Source: a virus
Length of the DNA: 64,000 nt
Direction: 5' to 3' (one strand)
IMG/VR virus record: IMGVR_UViG_3300038829_000127
Location: 4,975 to 68,974 of that record
A program made the translations under genes and the position numbers. Shown here one piece after another: positions 53,134 through 56,407 of the stretch. A model generated the notes under the pieces. The model was not told where the DNA came from and searched no databases. It saw only the letters and a list, made by a program, of their open reading frames with translations. The first letter of the stretch is position 1. Every line of letters starts with the position of its first letter.

Positions 53134-54360
53134 TCAGTCCTTGTACGGATCTTCCACATCGTCACCCGCCATCGCAACTCCGATCGGCGTCAACGTATGC
53201 AGAACCTTGATGGTGTCACCGTGGGCCTCGAGCACTTCCGGCAGCCGCTTGTAGCAGTGCGGCGACTCATCCACACCGGCTCCGCGCAGCTCCACATTCA
53301 TGGGCCGGATCCAGTTGTCCATCATCTCACGGGTCACGGCGCCACCGGTCTGCGACACAACGACTCGGCGGCCCTCGGCATTGCGCCCGAACTTCCGCTT
53401 CCCGGCCGCCTTGGTGCGGCTCATTACCCGACCGGCCCCGTGAACCGTAGAGTAGAAGGCTGTCTGGGAGTCGATGGACTCCACGCCCTCAATGATGACG
53501 GACACGTCGCCCATGGATCCGCCCACGAACCCACGCTGCCCGGGAAAGGCAGGTGTGGCGCCCTTGCGGACGACCCAGACCATCTCCCCCAGATGCTCCT
53601 CCAGCCAGGCGAAGTTGTGGTGGTTGTGCACCCGATCCAAGACGGGAGCCCCGATCAGGCTGGCCACGCGGTCGCATACCCAATCACGACCGGCGTAGGC
53701 GTACTGACCGGCCAGGTCCATGCAAGTCAGGTAGTTCTGGCCCAGTTCACTGTTCACAGGCAAGAGCACCGGGTCCACGTCGATACCATCCTTGCCGCCA
53801 CCCGCCTCGATAAAGTAGGTAGCGATCTTGTGGCCCAGGCCACGGCTGCCGAAGTGGACGCCGCACCAGACACGTTCCTGCTCGTCCACGAACAGGTCCA
53901 CGTAATGGTTGCCGGAGCCAATGGTCCCGAGCTGGTTCTGCGCCATGCGCTTCAACGGGGCCGCAGCCCGCAGCTTCCAGGCCGGATGACCGTCAGCCTC
54001 AAAGAGCGGGTGCTCAACCGACTCGTTGTTGTTCAGGCCGACACCGAACGAAAGCGTCTTCCAGATATCGTCCATGATCGTCTTGATATTGGCCCGGACC
54101 TCGGCAGCCGAAACATCCAGCAGCACCGCACAATTGCCACAGGCGATGTCGAAGCCAACGCCGTTCGGGCTGATCTTGTCCTTGTAGACCAGCACGCCAC
54201 CCACCGGGGCGGCGTACCCCTGATGGTTGTCGGCCATCAGGGCACAAGCATCCGCCGTCTCGAAGCAGTGGAGGATCTGGCGTTCGGCACCTTCGTCGGG
54301 CACACCGAAGACCGGGATGCTGTCTATTCCGTCCTTCTGGAGCCAGGTGAGGCGGCTCAT
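53134..54360 (-). CDS. rtcB: RtcB RNA ligase
   Basis: MADNHQGY, GFDIACG, GSGNHY, HFGSRG, HNHHN, RKGAT, HGAGRVMSR, DESPHCYK. Confidence 0.96.
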   Translation of the reverse strand: MSRLTWLQKDGIDSIPVFGVPDEGAERQILHCFETADACALMADNHQGYAAPVGGVLVYKDKISPNGVGFDIACGNCAVLLDVSAAEVRANIKTIMDDIWKTLSFGVGLNNNESVEHPLFEADGHPAWKLRAAAPLKRMAQNQLGTIGSGNHYVDLFVDEQERVWCGVHFGSRGLGHKIATYFIEAGGGKDGIDVDPVLLPVNSELGQNYLTCMDLAGQYAYAGRDWVCDRVASLIGAPVLDRVHNHHNFAWLEEHLGEMVWVVRKGATPAFPGQRGFVGGSMGDVSVIIEGVESIDSQTAFYSTVHGAGRVMSRTKAAGKRKFGRNAEGRRVVVSQTGGAVTREMMDNWIRPMNVELRGAGVDESPHCYKRLPEVLEAHGDTIKVLHTLTPIGVAMAGDDVEDPYKD

Positions 54361-55757
54361 CGAGCCGCCTCACTCTCATTCTCTTCCAGCGCAATCCACT
54401 CCACCAACCGCTCCGACCAGCCTGAGATGCGCGACCAACCGTTGCTCAGTTCCAGCGCGGGCTTGTAGCCGGCGACGTTGACGATATAGCCCTTGGCCTG
54501 CCGCACCTTGATGCCCGAGTCGGCCGCCTGTTCGTCAGTGACCACAATCGTCCGAGCGGGCTCGGGCAGGGTTTCTGCCATCTTGGCCAGCGCCTGCCCC
54601 AGATAGGTGCCGCCGTTCGGCTGCGAGTTCCACAGCGCCTCGATCAGCGGCAGCCCACGGTAGGCCGGAGCCTCCACCAGCTTCGTGGAGAACGTGAAGA
54701 TCCGGCAGTCCTCGCAGATTTCCCGCAGGAGGATGGCCAGGGCACCAGCCGCCTGGTAGCGGCGGAGCGTGCTCTTGGCCGACAGCGCATCGGACATGGA
54801 GCCCGACACGTCCACCAGCAGGTACGTCATGCCCGGGAGCCTGGGCGCCTCCTCGACGGCCAACAGCATGGCCTGCGAGAGAGCATCGACCATGGACGGG
54901 GCGGCCAGCGCGGCGGAGACGAATCGGAAGGGGAGGGCTTTGGACTTCCGGGCACCGGCCAACAGGGCAGCGTTGATCAGCGCCCGATCCACACCCGCCC
55001 CCTCCATGTTCCGCAGATTCATCAGAAGGGCCATGTACCCGAGCTTGTTTTCCGTGAGCAGCCGGGTGAAGGCTTCCTTCTTGTCAGCGCCGCCCGACAG
55101 GGCCACTTCCCATGTGTCCGGGGTGGCCAGGGTGCCGTTGACGATCTTCTCGTAAAGCAGTTCCCGCTCGGTCGGCTCGTACGGCCGGACAGGGCTTTTC
55201 TTCCGATCGGCCCGCACCCAATCAAAGTTGGCCGGCTTGGCATGGCACACGAAGAGAGCGTCACGCAGCTTGACCGCACCGTCCCGGTTCCACTTGGCCA
55301 ACTCGTGCTCACTGAACTTGGCGAATGCCAAGCTCAGGCCCTTCTTCACCTGGGCAGACACCGGGCACTTGCCGTCCTTCCAGTAGATGGACAGGAACTC
55401 GGCCAGTTCATCGGCACGCTGGATCGTCTCGCGCAAAGTGCGGGAGACGATGCCCGGGTCAGCGGTGCGGCCCGGATGCCGGGCCAGTTGCCGCACCAGG
55501 AACAGCGAGACGTGCCGCAGTTTCATGGCAGTGCGTGTGCTCACAGCCAACTCCGCCAACTGCTGCGGAGTTACCTGCAAGCACAGTTCCTCGATCCGCG
55601 CTGCGATCTCGGAGCCCGATTCGTAGAACGTGTTCTCGAACAGCATGCAGGTGGACACGGCCCGGGTCAGTTCCTGGAGGGGCGTCTGGTGCCGATCGGC
55701 CCGGCCCCCTTCATGGGTGACAACGGGCGGGAGCTTGGTGCAGGTGTTGGTCTTCAT
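54357..55757 (-). CDS. rsr: Ro60 autoantigen homologue (TROVE + vWA)
   Basis: FENTFYES, RADELAEFL, LAKW, LRDAL...H.KP, ALLMNLRNM, LPFRF, VDVSGSM, GGT, VTDEQ; ATGA overlap with rtcB. Confidence 0.95.
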   Translation of the reverse strand: MKTNTCTKLPPVVTHEGGRADRHQTPLQELTRAVSTCMLFENTFYESGSEIAARIEELCLQVTPQQLAELAVSTRTAMKLRHVSLFLVRQLARHPGRTADPGIVSRTLRETIQRADELAEFLSIYWKDGKCPVSAQVKKGLSLAFAKFSEHELAKWNRDGAVKLRDALFVCHAKPANFDWVRADRKKSPVRPYEPTERELLYEKIVNGTLATPDTWEVALSGGADKKEAFTRLLTENKLGYMALLMNLRNMEGAGVDRALINAALLAGARKSKALPFRFVSAALAAPSMVDALSQAMLLAVEEAPRLPGMTYLLVDVSGSMSDALSAKSTLRRYQAAGALAILLREICEDCRIFTFSTKLVEAPAYRGLPLIEALWNSQPNGGTYLGQALAKMAETLPEPARTIVVTDEQAADSGIKVRQAKGYIVNVAGYKPALELSNGWSRISGWSERLVEWIALEENESEAAR

Positions 55758-55776
55758 GGGGTTCTCCGTTTCTAGG

Positions 55777-55814
55777 TTCACTCATTCGACTGCACCAGCA
55801 GGCGAATGAGTGAA
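55777..55814 (-). promoter_or_regulatory. leader hairpin before the rsr ribosome-binding site
   Basis: TTCACTCATTCG-CCTGCTGGTGCAGT-CGAATGAGTGAA. Confidence 0.6.
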
Positions 55815-55847
55815 AGCCCTTGTTGGCCTGCAGTGAAAAACAGCACC

Positions 55848-55903
55848 CGGATCAGTCAACCACAGGGGTCATCTGCTAGAGGAAGTACCTGTAGTCTACG
55901 CCA
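55848..55903 (-). ncRNA. Y-RNA-like unit E (minimal)
   Basis: TGGCGTAGAC-TACAGG-TACTTC...CCTGTG-GTTGACTGATCCG. Confidence 0.75.
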
Positions 55904-55920
55904 GGGCGCAAAACAGTGAG

Positions 55921-55975
55921 CGGATCAAACAGCTACGGGAGCACTTACGATGAGAAGTACCCGCAGCCTACGCCA
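55921..55975 (-). ncRNA. Y-RNA-like unit D (minimal)
   Basis: TGGCGTAGGC-TGCGGG-TACTTC...CCCGTA-GCTGTTTGATCCG. Confidence 0.75.
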
Positions 55976-55993
55976 GCCCACAAAGAGCGTACT

Positions 55994-56115
55994 CGGATCA
56001 GACGGTAAGGGAACAGACCGCCGCCTCTGCCAGTTGGGCTACCCTGCCGTCTATTGGCAGGAGCTGGACTCGAACCAGCACATGAACGGTTCCGAAGTAA
56101 CCCTAGCCTACGCCA
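55994..56115 (-). ncRNA. yrlA: YrlA-type Y RNA (permuted tRNA mimic), unit C
   Basis: shared scaffold plus T arm GCTGG-TTCGAGT-CCAGC, closed acceptor hairpin TCCTGCC-AATAGAC-GGCAGGG, D arm TAGCCCAACTGGCAGAGGC, in T-AS-D order; next to rsr. Confidence 0.85.
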
Positions 56116-56133
56116 GAGTACAAAGAGAACGGC

Positions 56134-56191
56134 CGGATCAAACAACCACGGGATATTTTCTACCCAAGAGAAGTACCCGTAGTCTACGCCA
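56134..56191 (-). ncRNA. Y-RNA-like unit B (minimal)
   Basis: TGGCGTAGAC-TACGGG-TACTTC...CCCGTG-GTTGTTTGATCCG. Confidence 0.75.
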
Positions 56192-56213
56192 GGCCGTAAA
56201 ACAAGAGCGGAAT

Positions 56214-56308
56214 CGGATCAGACGGCTGAGGAGCAGTCCGGATTGACCCGGACACCCAACCGGCTTGCGCCAGTGAGTCTTAACCGAAGTAGCCCCAACC
56301 TGGCGCCA
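56214..56308 (-). ncRNA. Y-RNA-like unit A with two-hairpin cargo
   Basis: TGGCGCCAGG-TTGGGG-CTACTTC...CCTCAG-CCGTCTGATCCG; internal GCAA-capped hairpin and GTCCGG/CCGGAC hairpin. Confidence 0.7.
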
Positions 56309-56378
56309 GATTCCAAGGGATCACGGAGAAGGGTGGTCGTTCAGTTCCTCTCCGTTTCTAGTTTCTTCAACGAGGGGA

Positions 56379-56407
56379 AGTATACCACCCCGCTCGGGGC
56401 GGGTCAA
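56379..56407 (-). promoter_or_regulatory. sigma70-type promoter for the Y RNA-rsr-rtcB operon
   Basis: TTGACC-17 nt-TATACT on the - strand. Confidence 0.8.

What the first reader, a model, noticed from the sequence alone, without database searches (positions are those of the whole stretch)
55848..56372. Tandem array of 5-6 Y-RNA-like units: constant scaffold, interchangeable cargo
On the - strand each unit reads TGGCG(T/C)(A/C)...-inner stem-TACTTC-[cargo]-inner stem'-(GT)YTGATCC(G). The inner stem covaries across copies: TACGGG/CCCGTG, TAGGG/CCTTA, TGCGGG/CCCGTA, TACAGG/CCTGTG, TTGGGG/CCTCAG. This is direct evidence of selection on RNA structure. Cargo ranges from 14-17-nt loops to a tRNA mimic. 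Units are joined by 17-22-nt linkers with a shared pyrimidine-rich core (CTCTTTGT, CTCTTGTTTT, CACTGTTTTG), possibly processing sites. A sixth degenerate hairpin (ACGGAGA/TCTCCGT followed by GATCC) lies at about 56317-56372. GGCGUAG resembles the GNCGAA(N)G motif I recall for bacterial Ro-binding stems. I know of no description of such a modular cassette, in which each Ro60 ring could be loaded with a different adaptor or decoy RNA.
Basis: partly seen in the sequence, partly recalled or inferred. Interest (0 to 1): 0.88.

Follow-up and report, generated by a model that had tools for sequence, protein, structure and literature searches.

The report
Five-gene Y RNA array beside phage Ro60
A 70-kb groundwater phage carries five head-to-tail small-RNA genes just upstream of its Ro60 and RtcB genes. 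All five share one conserved docking stem but have different tops. This is an expanded, database-invisible version of the known Ro60/Y RNA partnership, not a new kind of system.

Summary
On the minus strand, five units lie between a near-consensus sigma-70 promoter and a Ro60 (TROVE+vWA) gene that overlaps rtcB.

Each unit has the same layout:
- a 6-bp closing stem, different in every unit (30/30 positions paired);
- UGGCG;
- a covarying inner stem;
- an invariant UACUUC;
- a variable head;
- UGAUCC.

Three heads are short loops (YrlB-like), one is a permuted tRNA mimic (YrlA-like) and one carries a T-arm-like hairpin.

The same scaffold recurs upstream of Ro60 in 14 related phage loci. These include the cultured Xanthomonas, Caulobacter and Brevundimonas phages. 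A model built from 18 units found 161 further copies in 80 other viral loci and 149 in 80 bacterial loci, all on the Ro60 strand. Covariation was strong: about 92% of positions paired against about 61% in shuffles.

Rfam's YrlA model reaches only 25 bits on one unit, against a threshold of 69. It misses the rest.

The "sixth unit" is a leader hairpin, not a unit. The "linkers" are closing-stem strands plus a 6-11-nt U-rich spacer.

Multiple modular Y RNAs next to Ro60 are already published (Chen 2014; phage phiLo 2025). This scan has also met such arrays in other phages, so I rate it a new variant of a known kind. Expression and Ro60 binding remain untested.

The parts
56379..56407 (-). Sigma-70-type promoter: TTGACC, 17 nt, TG-TATACT. 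The predicted start is near 56372.
   Evidence: 10 of 12 consensus matches with an extended -10 TG. It is the only strong site in 5.5 kb. Function is inferred.
56323..56355 (-). The arms are ACGGAGAGG and CCUUCUCCGU, followed by GAUCC. It is not a family unit.
   Evidence: Searches show the hairpin; no R1 match with filters off. It lacks UGGCG and UACUUC. Its 5' arm lies in a 17-nt copy (16/17) of the Ro60 ribosome-binding region (D6).
56208..56315 (-). U1. Closing stem GGAAUC/GAUUCC, UGGCGCC, inner stem GGUUGGGG/CCUCAGCC, CUACUUC. The head is a GCAA-tetraloop hairpin plus a T-arm-like hairpin (UCCGG-GUCAAU-CCGGA).
   Evidence: R1 27.0 bits, full length; the minimum-energy fold prefers an alternative pairing of an internal palindrome, so the head structure is uncertain.
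56128..56198 (-). U2. A short hairpin-type (YrlB-like) Y RNA with closing stem ACGGCC/GGCCGU, a 9-bp inner stem, and a loop of UACUUC plus 17 nt.
   Evidence: R1 70.2 bits; the fold equals the model, z -2.5.
55988..56122 (-). U3. A YrlA-like unit whose head is a permuted tRNA mimic: T arm, 7-bp 'acceptor' stem-loop and D arm.
   Evidence: Rfam YrlA 25.2 bits, E 0.0086, threshold 69; it aligns with 20 units from other loci, and 23 of 27 consensus pairs show compensatory change.
55915..55982 (-). U4. A short hairpin-type Y RNA with closing stem GUGGGC/GCUCAC.
   Evidence: R1 61.0 bits; z -3.4.
55842..55910 (-). U5. A short hairpin-type Y RNA with closing stem GCGCCC/GGGUGC.
   Evidence: R1 64.3 bits; z -2.1.
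55777..55814 (-). A 17-bp hairpin between the array and the Ro60 ribosome-binding site, with no U tract. It may be a processing site or stabiliser.
   Evidence: z -3.97, with 0 of 200 shuffles folding as well. I1. Role is inferred.
55755..55779 (-). Ro60 translation start region: GGAG at 55767-55764 and ATG at 55757-55755. It contains the second copy of CUAGAAACGGAGA.
54357..55757 (-). Ro60/Rsr gene (466 aa): a TROVE ring plus a vWA domain with the DxSxS MIDAS motif.
   Evidence: TROVE, VWA. (9KOP/9L5Y, E 3e-22). (D316, S318 and S320 invariant). (phrog_850). (top 13 PDB folds are all Ro60, TM 0.60-0.67).
53134..54360 (-). RtcB RNA ligase gene. Its start overlaps the Ro60 stop by 4 nt.
   Evidence: for coordinates. 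Pfam RtcB 3.5e-64; phrog_1075.

Best explanation
The stretch is a polycistronic array of five Y RNA genes belonging to the phage's own Ro60 protein.

Proposed mechanism:
1. One sigma-70-type promoter drives a transcript that runs through a leader hairpin, the five units and, with no terminator in between, into Ro60, rtcB and a SNF2-type helicase gene.
2. Each unit folds by itself into a rod. The rod has a unit-specific 6-bp closing stem and a conserved asymmetric internal loop (UGGCG(UA)G facing UUGAUCC), which is the Ro60 docking site. Above that come a covarying 8-9-bp stem, an invariant UACUUC at the stem-head junction, and a head.
3. Host endonucleases cut in the short U-rich spacers and release the five RNAs.
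4. Each RNA then occupies one Ro60 ring and presents a different head. Three are pyrimidine-rich loops of the YrlB type, one is a tRNA mimic of the YrlA type and one is a T-arm-like hairpin. These heads recruit different partners, such as host PNPase or tRNA-handling enzymes, during infection.

Shown here: the anatomy, the selection on structure, the strict strand- and Ro60-linkage, the homology of the long units to YrlA, and the identity of the protein.

Inferred: transcription, processing, Ro60 binding and partner recruitment.
For: Anatomy and pairing:
-, with 30/30 closing-stem positions paired.
- Alignment of 18 short units from 8 loci: 15 consensus pairs, 13 with compensatory changes.
- In that alignment 92.2% of cells are paired against 62.6% in shuffles. 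The covariation score is 0.79 against 0.20 (0 of 500 shuffles reach it). Sliding the partner by 1-3 columns drops pairing to 36-51%.
- The model found non-seed units in every related locus tested, all upstream of Ro60 and on its strand.
- It found 161 hits in 80 further viral loci and 149 in 80 bacterial loci, with none on the opposite strand. On 128 distinct new sequences, 92.9% of cells were paired against 61.1%.
- The 5' motif alone occurs 166 times on the plus strand and 6 times on the minus strand upstream of viral Ro60 genes. In bacterial loci the counts are 276 and 17.

Homology to YrlA:
- Long-head units, including U3, share closing stem, inner stem, T arm, acceptor-like stem and D arm. 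23 of 27 pairs show compensatory change.
- They hit Rfam YrlA at E 1e-10 to 1e-3.

The protein and its linkage:
- The protein is Ro60.
- The array follows Ro60, not RtcB. RtcB lies beside Ro60 in only 1 of 94 viral and 7 of 80 bacterial loci.

Other:
- Spacers after units are U-rich, about 50% U against a 24% background.

Published precedent:
- Y RNAs are encoded 5' of rsr and cut from one precursor. One is a tRNA mimic and one is a hairpin with a pyrimidine-rich loop (PMC4201824).
- Phage phiLo Ro60 binds two upstream phage-encoded Y RNA-like RNAs and, together with a Y RNA-like RNA, forms a complex with host PNPase (PMC12135203).
Against: - No RNA data exist. Only DNA runs from groundwater hold the sequence, and no RNA run was listed.
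- Ro60 binding cannot be tested with these tools.
- The published 5' motif GNCGAAN0-1G is matched at only 6 of 7 positions. Relatives often have UGGUG, which breaks the GNCG core.
- Rfam YrlA stays far below its threshold (25.2 against 69 bits).
- U1's minimum-energy fold differs from the family scaffold.
- U3's inner stem has two mismatches.
- Seed units were picked by a script that required some pairing. Alignments A4 and A5 are fitted to the model. Percent-paired figures therefore lean upward, although the slide controls and the number of pair types do not depend on this.
Confidence: 0.85

Rival explanations
1. The repeats are a cis-acting leader of the Ro60-rtcB mRNA. On this reading they form a series of stem plus U-tract attenuators or stability elements that set how much transcript reaches Ro60, and they are not free-standing RNAs.
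For: - Each unit ends in a stem followed by a U-rich tract, and one scores as terminator-like.
- No terminator separates the array from Ro60 in this window.
- The leader holds a copy of the Ro60 ribosome-binding sequence, whose hairpin partner could also pair with the real site.
Against: - Invariant single-stranded motifs (UGGYG, UACUUC, UUGUUCC) are kept across Ro60 proteins only about 45% identical.
- Heads include complete tRNA-like domains homologous to YrlA.
- In some relatives the array lies downstream of Ro60, and in L006 an intrinsic-terminator-like hairpin with a U tract separates it from Ro60 (read from the sequence).
- Homologous RNAs are known to accumulate as Ro60-bound small RNAs (PMC4201824).
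Confidence: 0.05
2. The units are stand-alone tRNA-like decoys or substrates for another protein, such as RtcB, host tRNA enzymes or host anticodon nucleases. The conserved scaffold would then be recognised by something other than Ro60.
For: - rtcB overlaps the Ro60 gene here.
- Arrays in relatives are interleaved with real tRNA and tmRNA genes.
- Known YrlA is modified by tRNA enzymes and cut by RNase P (PMC4201824).
Against: - RtcB is next to Ro60 in only 1 of 94 viral and 7 of 80 bacterial loci that carry the scaffold. Every locus was fetched through Ro60, and hits lie on its strand.
- Three of the five units have no tRNA-like part at all.
- The rod with a conserved internal loop is the Y RNA design that Ro60 binds in Xenopus, Deinococcus and phage phiLo.
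Confidence: 0.08
3. The stretch is a non-functional repeat: REP- or MITE-like palindromes, a CRISPR-like repeat-spacer array, or decayed tRNA genes.
For: The regular spacing and a constant part plus a variable part look superficially like repeat-spacer arrays. Gene callers annotate a 68-nt 'tRNA' inside the arrays of two cultured phages.
Against: - The constant part is split into 5' and 3' halves that pair around the variable part.
- Closing and inner stems covary unit by unit.
- Hits are strictly on one strand and only beside Ro60.
- ARAGORN finds no tRNA in the array.
- No cas or transposase genes are nearby.
- Antisense ORFs over the array match no Pfam family.
Confidence: 0.02

Closest known systems
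YrlA (Rfam RF02553; Salmonella Typhimurium, Mycobacterium smegmatis, mycobacteriophages, CcrColossus; Chen et al. 2014, PMC4201824; crystal structure preprint 10.1101/312249)
   Same: - It is encoded within a few hundred bases 5' of Ro60 on the same strand.
- A long stem is formed by the two ends, with a G-N-C-G-type motif on the 5' strand.
- A conserved YUAY sits at the stem-head junction; here it is UUAC or GUAC within UACUUC.
- The head is a permuted tRNA mimic in the order T arm, acceptor-like stem-loop, D arm. U3 and 20 relatives show all of this.
- U3's acceptor-like stem is 7 bp, as in M. smegmatis YrlA. [quoted passage not shown]
   Different: - U3 scores 25.2 bits against a threshold of 69. 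Relatives score 30-56 bits.
- Both strands of the docking loop are conserved here. In published YrlA only the 5' strand is.
- The motif is GGCGUAG, not GNCGAA(N)G.
- Only one of the five units is of this type.
YrlB of S. Typhimurium and M. smegmatis, and Yrn2 of Deinococcus radiodurans (PMC4201824)
   Same: [quoted passage not shown] U2, U4 and U5 fit this description.
   Different: There are three such units here instead of one. They carry the same UACUUC junction as the tRNA-like unit. No Rfam model exists for this type. I had no YrlB sequence to compare directly.
Thermus phage phiLo Ro60 with Yrl1 and Yrl2 (PMC12135203; PDB 9KOP, 9L5Y)
   Same: This is a phage-encoded Ro60 with Y RNA-like genes directly upstream. 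Binding was shown by gel shift and cryo-EM, and a complex with host PNPase was observed. It is the closest solved relative of this window's Ro60 (E 3e-22; TM 0.67).
   Different: It has two RNAs rather than five. They were found through a CGAA motif, and no tRNA mimic is reported in what I read. The proteins are 24% identical.
The Deinococcus radiodurans rsr locus (Yrn1, Yrn2, RNAs a, b, d and tRNA-Asp)
   Same: Several small RNAs lie upstream of rsr, partly from one precursor together with a tRNA. Both strands of the Ro60-binding helix are conserved.
   Different: The Deinococcus RNAs do not share one uniform scaffold, and three of them bind Rsr weakly (PMC4201824).
Metazoan Y RNAs (Rfam RF00019)
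   Same: They have a terminal stem with a conserved Ro60 site, a variable effector loop, a U-rich 3' tail, and two to four paralogues per genome. These points rest on established knowledge and PMC4201824.
   Different: Each metazoan Y RNA is a separate pol III gene, none has a tRNA-like head, and there was no Rfam Y_RNA hit here.

Membership tests
Bacterial/phage Y RNA (YrlA/YrlB type) | Encoded within about 4 kb of a Ro60 orthologue, on the same strand | tested here: met
   The array ends 85 nt before the Ro60 ATG on the same strand. All 357 model hits in 174 related loci are on the Ro60 strand.
Bacterial/phage Y RNA (YrlA/YrlB type) | Long stem formed by pairing of the 5' and 3' ends | tested here: met
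   Each of the five units has a 6-bp closing stem plus a GG/CC pair. Covariation supports it.
Bacterial/phage Y RNA (YrlA/YrlB type) | GNCGAAN0-1G motif near the 5' end (proposed Ro60 contact) | tested here: inconclusive
   Four units have GGCGUAG (6 of 7 positions) and U1 has GGCGCCAGG. Relatives have UGG(C/U)G followed by variable bases.
Bacterial/phage Y RNA (YrlA/YrlB type) | At least one RNA of the locus carries a tRNA-like domain (T arm, acceptor-like stem, D arm) | tested here: met
   U3.
Bacterial/phage Y RNA (YrlA/YrlB type) | Accumulates as a discrete small RNA bound to Ro60 | not testable with these tools
   No RNA run was listed, and there is no RNA-protein prediction tool.
Rfam RF02553 (YrlA) | Score at or above the gathering threshold of 69 bits | tested here: not met
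   U3 scores 25.2 bits and the other four units get no hit. The best relative scores 55.9 bits. No unit in 14 loci passes the threshold.
Ro60/Rsr protein | TROVE HEAT-repeat ring followed by a vWA domain with a MIDAS motif | tested here: met
   Pfam TROVE and VWA. DxSxS is invariant. Full-length match to phage Ro60. In the predicted fold, the 13 best PDB matches are all Ro60.
Transfer RNA | Cloverleaf with anticodon arm and 3' acceptor end | tested here: not met
   ARAGORN and Rfam tRNA find nothing in the array. U3 has its T arm before its D arm and a closed acceptor-like stem.

The most novel reading that the evidence does not exclude
Ro60-linked arrays may be natural libraries of exchangeable heads on one docking handle, used by phages, and by Acidobacteriota where four to seven units are common. 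Each head would aim the same Ro60 ring at a different host RNA or enzyme. The invariant UACUUC junction, present even on units with no tRNA-like part, would then be a second, undescribed recognition element. In this phage the fusion with rtcB would make the particle part of a counter-defence against host tRNA-cutting nucleases.
Probability: 0.25. Interest if true: 0.7.

Novelty: new variant of a known kind. Interest (0 to 1): 0.45.

Why it matters
Y RNAs are well known in animals, but their functions are best characterised in Deinococcus radiodurans, with some further work in two other bacteria and one Thermus phage.

This locus belongs to a large family that Rfam does not detect. In this family one docking handle carries many different heads: 310 further copies in 160 loci here, found in phages and in Acidobacteriota.

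That gives three practical gains:
- a covariance model that finds the short, non-tRNA-like Y RNAs that current searches miss;
- a correction for likely false 'tRNA' annotations in cultured phages;
- a compact natural test bed, with five heads, one protein and one promoter in 0.6 kb, for asking what the heads recruit and why phages carry Ro60.

It does not change the concept of what a Y RNA is.

Tried and rejected
- **DNA similarity.** blastn of the array against 50,697 phage records found nothing. The array is too diverged for DNA search.
- **Exact pattern.** TGGCG...TGATCC found no array in related loci, because relatives use UUGUUCC. A looser 5' motif search did find them.
- **First unit parser.** My first script misplaced several 3' ends. 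I replaced it, but a few units stayed misparsed (L008 2791, L020 2042) and were left out of the alignments.
- **Rfam.** At gathering thresholds nothing was found in the array.
- **Sixth unit.** Rejected.
- **Second Ro60 site in U1.** U1's internal TGGCGCAAG looked like one, but it is better read as a 5-bp hairpin with a GCAA tetraloop.
- **Pairing in the docking loop.** I looked for pairing between the Y of UGGYG and the G of UUGUUCC. Relatives with UGGCG and AAUCC break it, so I treat the internal loop as conserved sequence, not helix.
- **Antisense ORFs.** Those over the array have no Pfam match.
- **Expression.** Two run searches listed only DNA runs, from groundwater and peat.
- **Literature.** The supplementary tables of Chen 2014, the 2020 Annual Review and the 2019 Crit Rev paper are not held. 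I therefore could not check how many Y RNAs per phage were already tabulated.
- **Complex prediction.** Not used, because it handles proteins only.

Full report
**What is there.** The window is bases 4975-68974 of a 70,303-bp IMG/VR virus record rated complete. Its DNA is held by groundwater metagenome runs.

Read on the minus strand, the stretch begins with a near-consensus promoter at 56407-56379: TTGACC, 17 nt, TG-TATACT, with 10 of 12 matches. It ends at the start codon of a 466-aa gene at 55757.

That gene is Ro60:
- Pfam TROVE and vWA;
- PHROG 850;
- a full-length match to the Ro60 of Thermus phage phiLo, PDB 9KOP/9L5Y, E 3e-22;
- an invariant DxSxS MIDAS motif;
- a predicted fold (pLDDT 76) whose 13 best PDB matches are all Ro60 proteins, TM 0.60-0.67.

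Its stop overlaps the start of rtcB by 4 nt, and a SNF2-type helicase gene follows 3 nt later.

**Anatomy of the units.** Five units are present: U1 56208-56315, U2 56128-56198, U3 55988-56122, U4 55915-55982 and U5 55842-55910.

From the outside in, each has:
- a 6-bp closing stem;
- U, then GG (pairing with the CC of the 3' motif), then CG(UA)G;
- an 8-9-bp inner stem;
- (G/U/C)UACUUC;
- a head;
- the return strand of the inner stem;
- 2-4 nt, then UGAUCC;
- the return strand of the closing stem.

These are different in every unit and complementary at 30 of 30 positions, which by my arithmetic has a chance of about 2e-13.

With the closing stems included, the minimum-energy folds of U2, U4 and U5 are exactly this rod (z -2.1 to -3.4). 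U1 prefers an alternative fold through an internal palindrome. U3's inner stem has two mismatches.

The heads are as follows:
- U2, U4 and U5: loops of 14-17 nt after UACUUC.
- U1: a GCAA-tetraloop hairpin plus a T-arm-like hairpin.
- U3: a T arm, a 7-bp closed acceptor-like stem and a D arm.

**Is it more than chance, and is structure selected?** A Ro60 protein search of viral contigs gave 11 loci with about 45% identical proteins. Nearly all carry several copies of UGG(C/U)G, then 9-12 nt, then UUACUUC upstream of Ro60. So do the cultured Xanthomonas phage 10KY502B, Caulobacter phage CcrColossus and a Brevundimonas phage.

Eighteen short units from eight loci were aligned, with these results:
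- The consensus has 15 pairs, 13 with compensatory changes.
- 92.2% of cells are paired against 62.6% in shuffles.
- The covariation score is 0.79 against 0.20, reached by 0 of 500 shuffles.
- Sliding the partners by 1-3 columns drops pairing to 36-51%.

A covariance model from this alignment (R1) recovered non-seed units in all the other loci. A profile search with nine Ro60 proteins found 465 viral contigs. In the best 80, R1 found 161 units at E of 1e-3 or better, all on the Ro60 strand. On 128 distinct sequences, 92.9% of cells paired against 61.1% in shuffles.

The same search of one genome per prokaryotic species found at least 568 relatives, mostly Acidobacteriota. The best 80 loci gave 149 units, again all on the Ro60 strand.

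The simple 5' motif alone shows the same bias:
- 166 plus-strand against 6 minus-strand occurrences upstream of viral Ro60;
- 276 against 17 in bacterial loci.

Two caveats apply. The seed units were chosen by a script that demanded some pairing. Alignments A4 and A5 are fitted to the model. The slide controls and the number of pair types do not depend on this.

**Relation to known Y RNAs.** Twenty-one long-head units, including U3, align well. They share closing stem, inner stem, T arm, acceptor-like stem and D arm, with 23 of 27 pairs compensated.

Rfam YrlA hits them at E 1e-10 to 1e-3, but at 30-56 bits against a threshold of 69. U3 gets 25.2 bits. No unit in 14 loci passes the threshold.

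It is not met: one unit in five is weakly recognised and the short units are not recognised at all.

The junction UUAC corresponds to the conserved YUAY of YrlA, whose UA makes a kink in the crystal structure (PMC4201824; 10.1101/312249). Here the longer UACUUC is invariant even in units with no tRNA-like part, which I did not find discussed.

**What is already published.** Chen et al. 2014 (PMC4201824) report the following:
- YrlA-like RNAs lie within 4 kb of Ro60 in 254 bacteria and 22 phages.
- Each of the three species studied has at least two Y RNAs.
- In M. smegmatis both Y RNAs are cut from one precursor. In Deinococcus, Yrn2 is made as a polycistronic precursor with tRNA-Asp and Yrn1.
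- Four small RNAs (a to d) plus Yrn2 lie upstream of Deinococcus rsr.

A 2025 paper (PMC12135203) shows that phage phiLo Ro60 binds two upstream phage RNAs. It also shows that the protein, a Y RNA-like RNA and host PNPase form a complex together. The modular idea and phage Y RNAs are therefore known.

What I did not find described is arrays of five or more units on one uniform scaffold, or any model for the short units.

Earlier follow-ups in this scan reached the same reading on other phages, with six-, nine- and ten-unit arrays. Array size in this family is usually 2-3 in viral loci, with 5 or more in 2 of 71 loci that have at least 2 kb of upstream sequence. It reaches 9 or more in L008 and 8 in CcrColossus. 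In 24 of 80 bacterial loci it is 5 or more. The window's five units are large for a phage but not exceptional for the family.

**Mechanism.** I commit to a polycistronic Y RNA array at 0.85. Transcription starts near 56372. Each unit folds independently. Cleavage occurs in the U-rich spacers, which are about 50% U against a 24% background across the family. Each RNA then docks on Ro60 through the conserved internal loop, and the heads recruit different partners.

The linkage is with Ro60, not RtcB. RtcB neighbours Ro60 in 1 of 94 viral and 7 of 80 bacterial loci. The Ro60-rtcB fusion operon here is therefore a minority arrangement that parallels the Salmonella rsr-yrlBA-rtcBA operon.

All steps after the folding are inferred. 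No RNA data are available.

**Rivals.** I considered three: a cis-acting leader or attenuator series (0.05), Ro60-independent tRNA-like decoys (0.08) and non-functional repeats (0.02). The reasons are given in the rival section.

**Verdict.** This is a new variant of a known kind, of moderate interest.

Noticed in passing
window 56349-56365 and 55763-55779 (minus strand): A 17-nt direct repeat (16/17, core CUAGAAACGGAGA 13/13) flanks the array. One copy is the 5' arm of the leader hairpin and the other is the Ro60 ribosome-binding region. The hairpin's 3' arm (CCUUCUCCGU) could also pair with the real site 590 nt downstream. This might couple Ro60 translation to processing of the array, or it may be a scar of how the array was inserted.
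   Followed up: partly
L020 2331-2398 (Xanthomonas phage 10KY502B, OQ622092.1) and L021 2128-2195 (Caulobacter phage CcrColossus, NC_019406.1): The GenBank records annotate 68-nt 'tRNA-Thr' and 'tRNA-Gln' genes that coincide with the 5' half (handle plus V arm plus T arm) of YrlA-like units. They are probably false tRNA calls. The rest of both arrays (5 and 8 units) is unannotated. The V arm of several units looks like an anticodon stem-loop, for example a CUUGUAA loop.
   Followed up: partly
L007 1404-1694 (IMGVR_UViG_3300031564_000194); L022 6781-7036 (Brevundimonas phage Papperlapapp): A permuted tmRNA gene (RF04321) lies inside the Y RNA array of L007, between two units, scoring 130 bits. 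Another lies just downstream of Ro60 in the Brevundimonas phage, scoring 60 bits. L001 and L010 interleave true tRNA genes with units.
   Followed up: no
L103-L182 (bacterial genomes, mostly Acidobacteriota/Terriglobia MAGs): The same handle family is abundant next to Ro60 in Acidobacteriota. 24 of 80 loci have five to seven 5' motifs within about 6 kb, so multi-unit arrays are common there. I did not check whether these loci are chromosomal or prophage.
   Followed up: partly
window 53134-54360 versus loci L001-L182: RtcB directly coupled to Ro60 (4-nt overlap) is rare in this Ro60 lineage: 1 of 94 viral and 7 of 80 bacterial loci have RtcB within the fetched flanks.
   Followed up: yes
window 55777-55814 (minus strand); L006 about 2910-2950: A 17-bp hairpin with no U tract (z -3.97) sits between the last unit and the Ro60 ribosome-binding site. 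In L006 the same position holds a stem-loop followed by a U tract that reads as an intrinsic terminator. Coupling of array and Ro60 transcription therefore seems to differ between relatives.
   Followed up: no
L004 about 2570-2760; L008 about 1530-1740; L011 about 2650-2820: Stretches of 150-250 nt of GC-rich, apparently structured non-coding sequence lie between Y RNA units in several relatives. They match no Rfam family at threshold.
   Followed up: no
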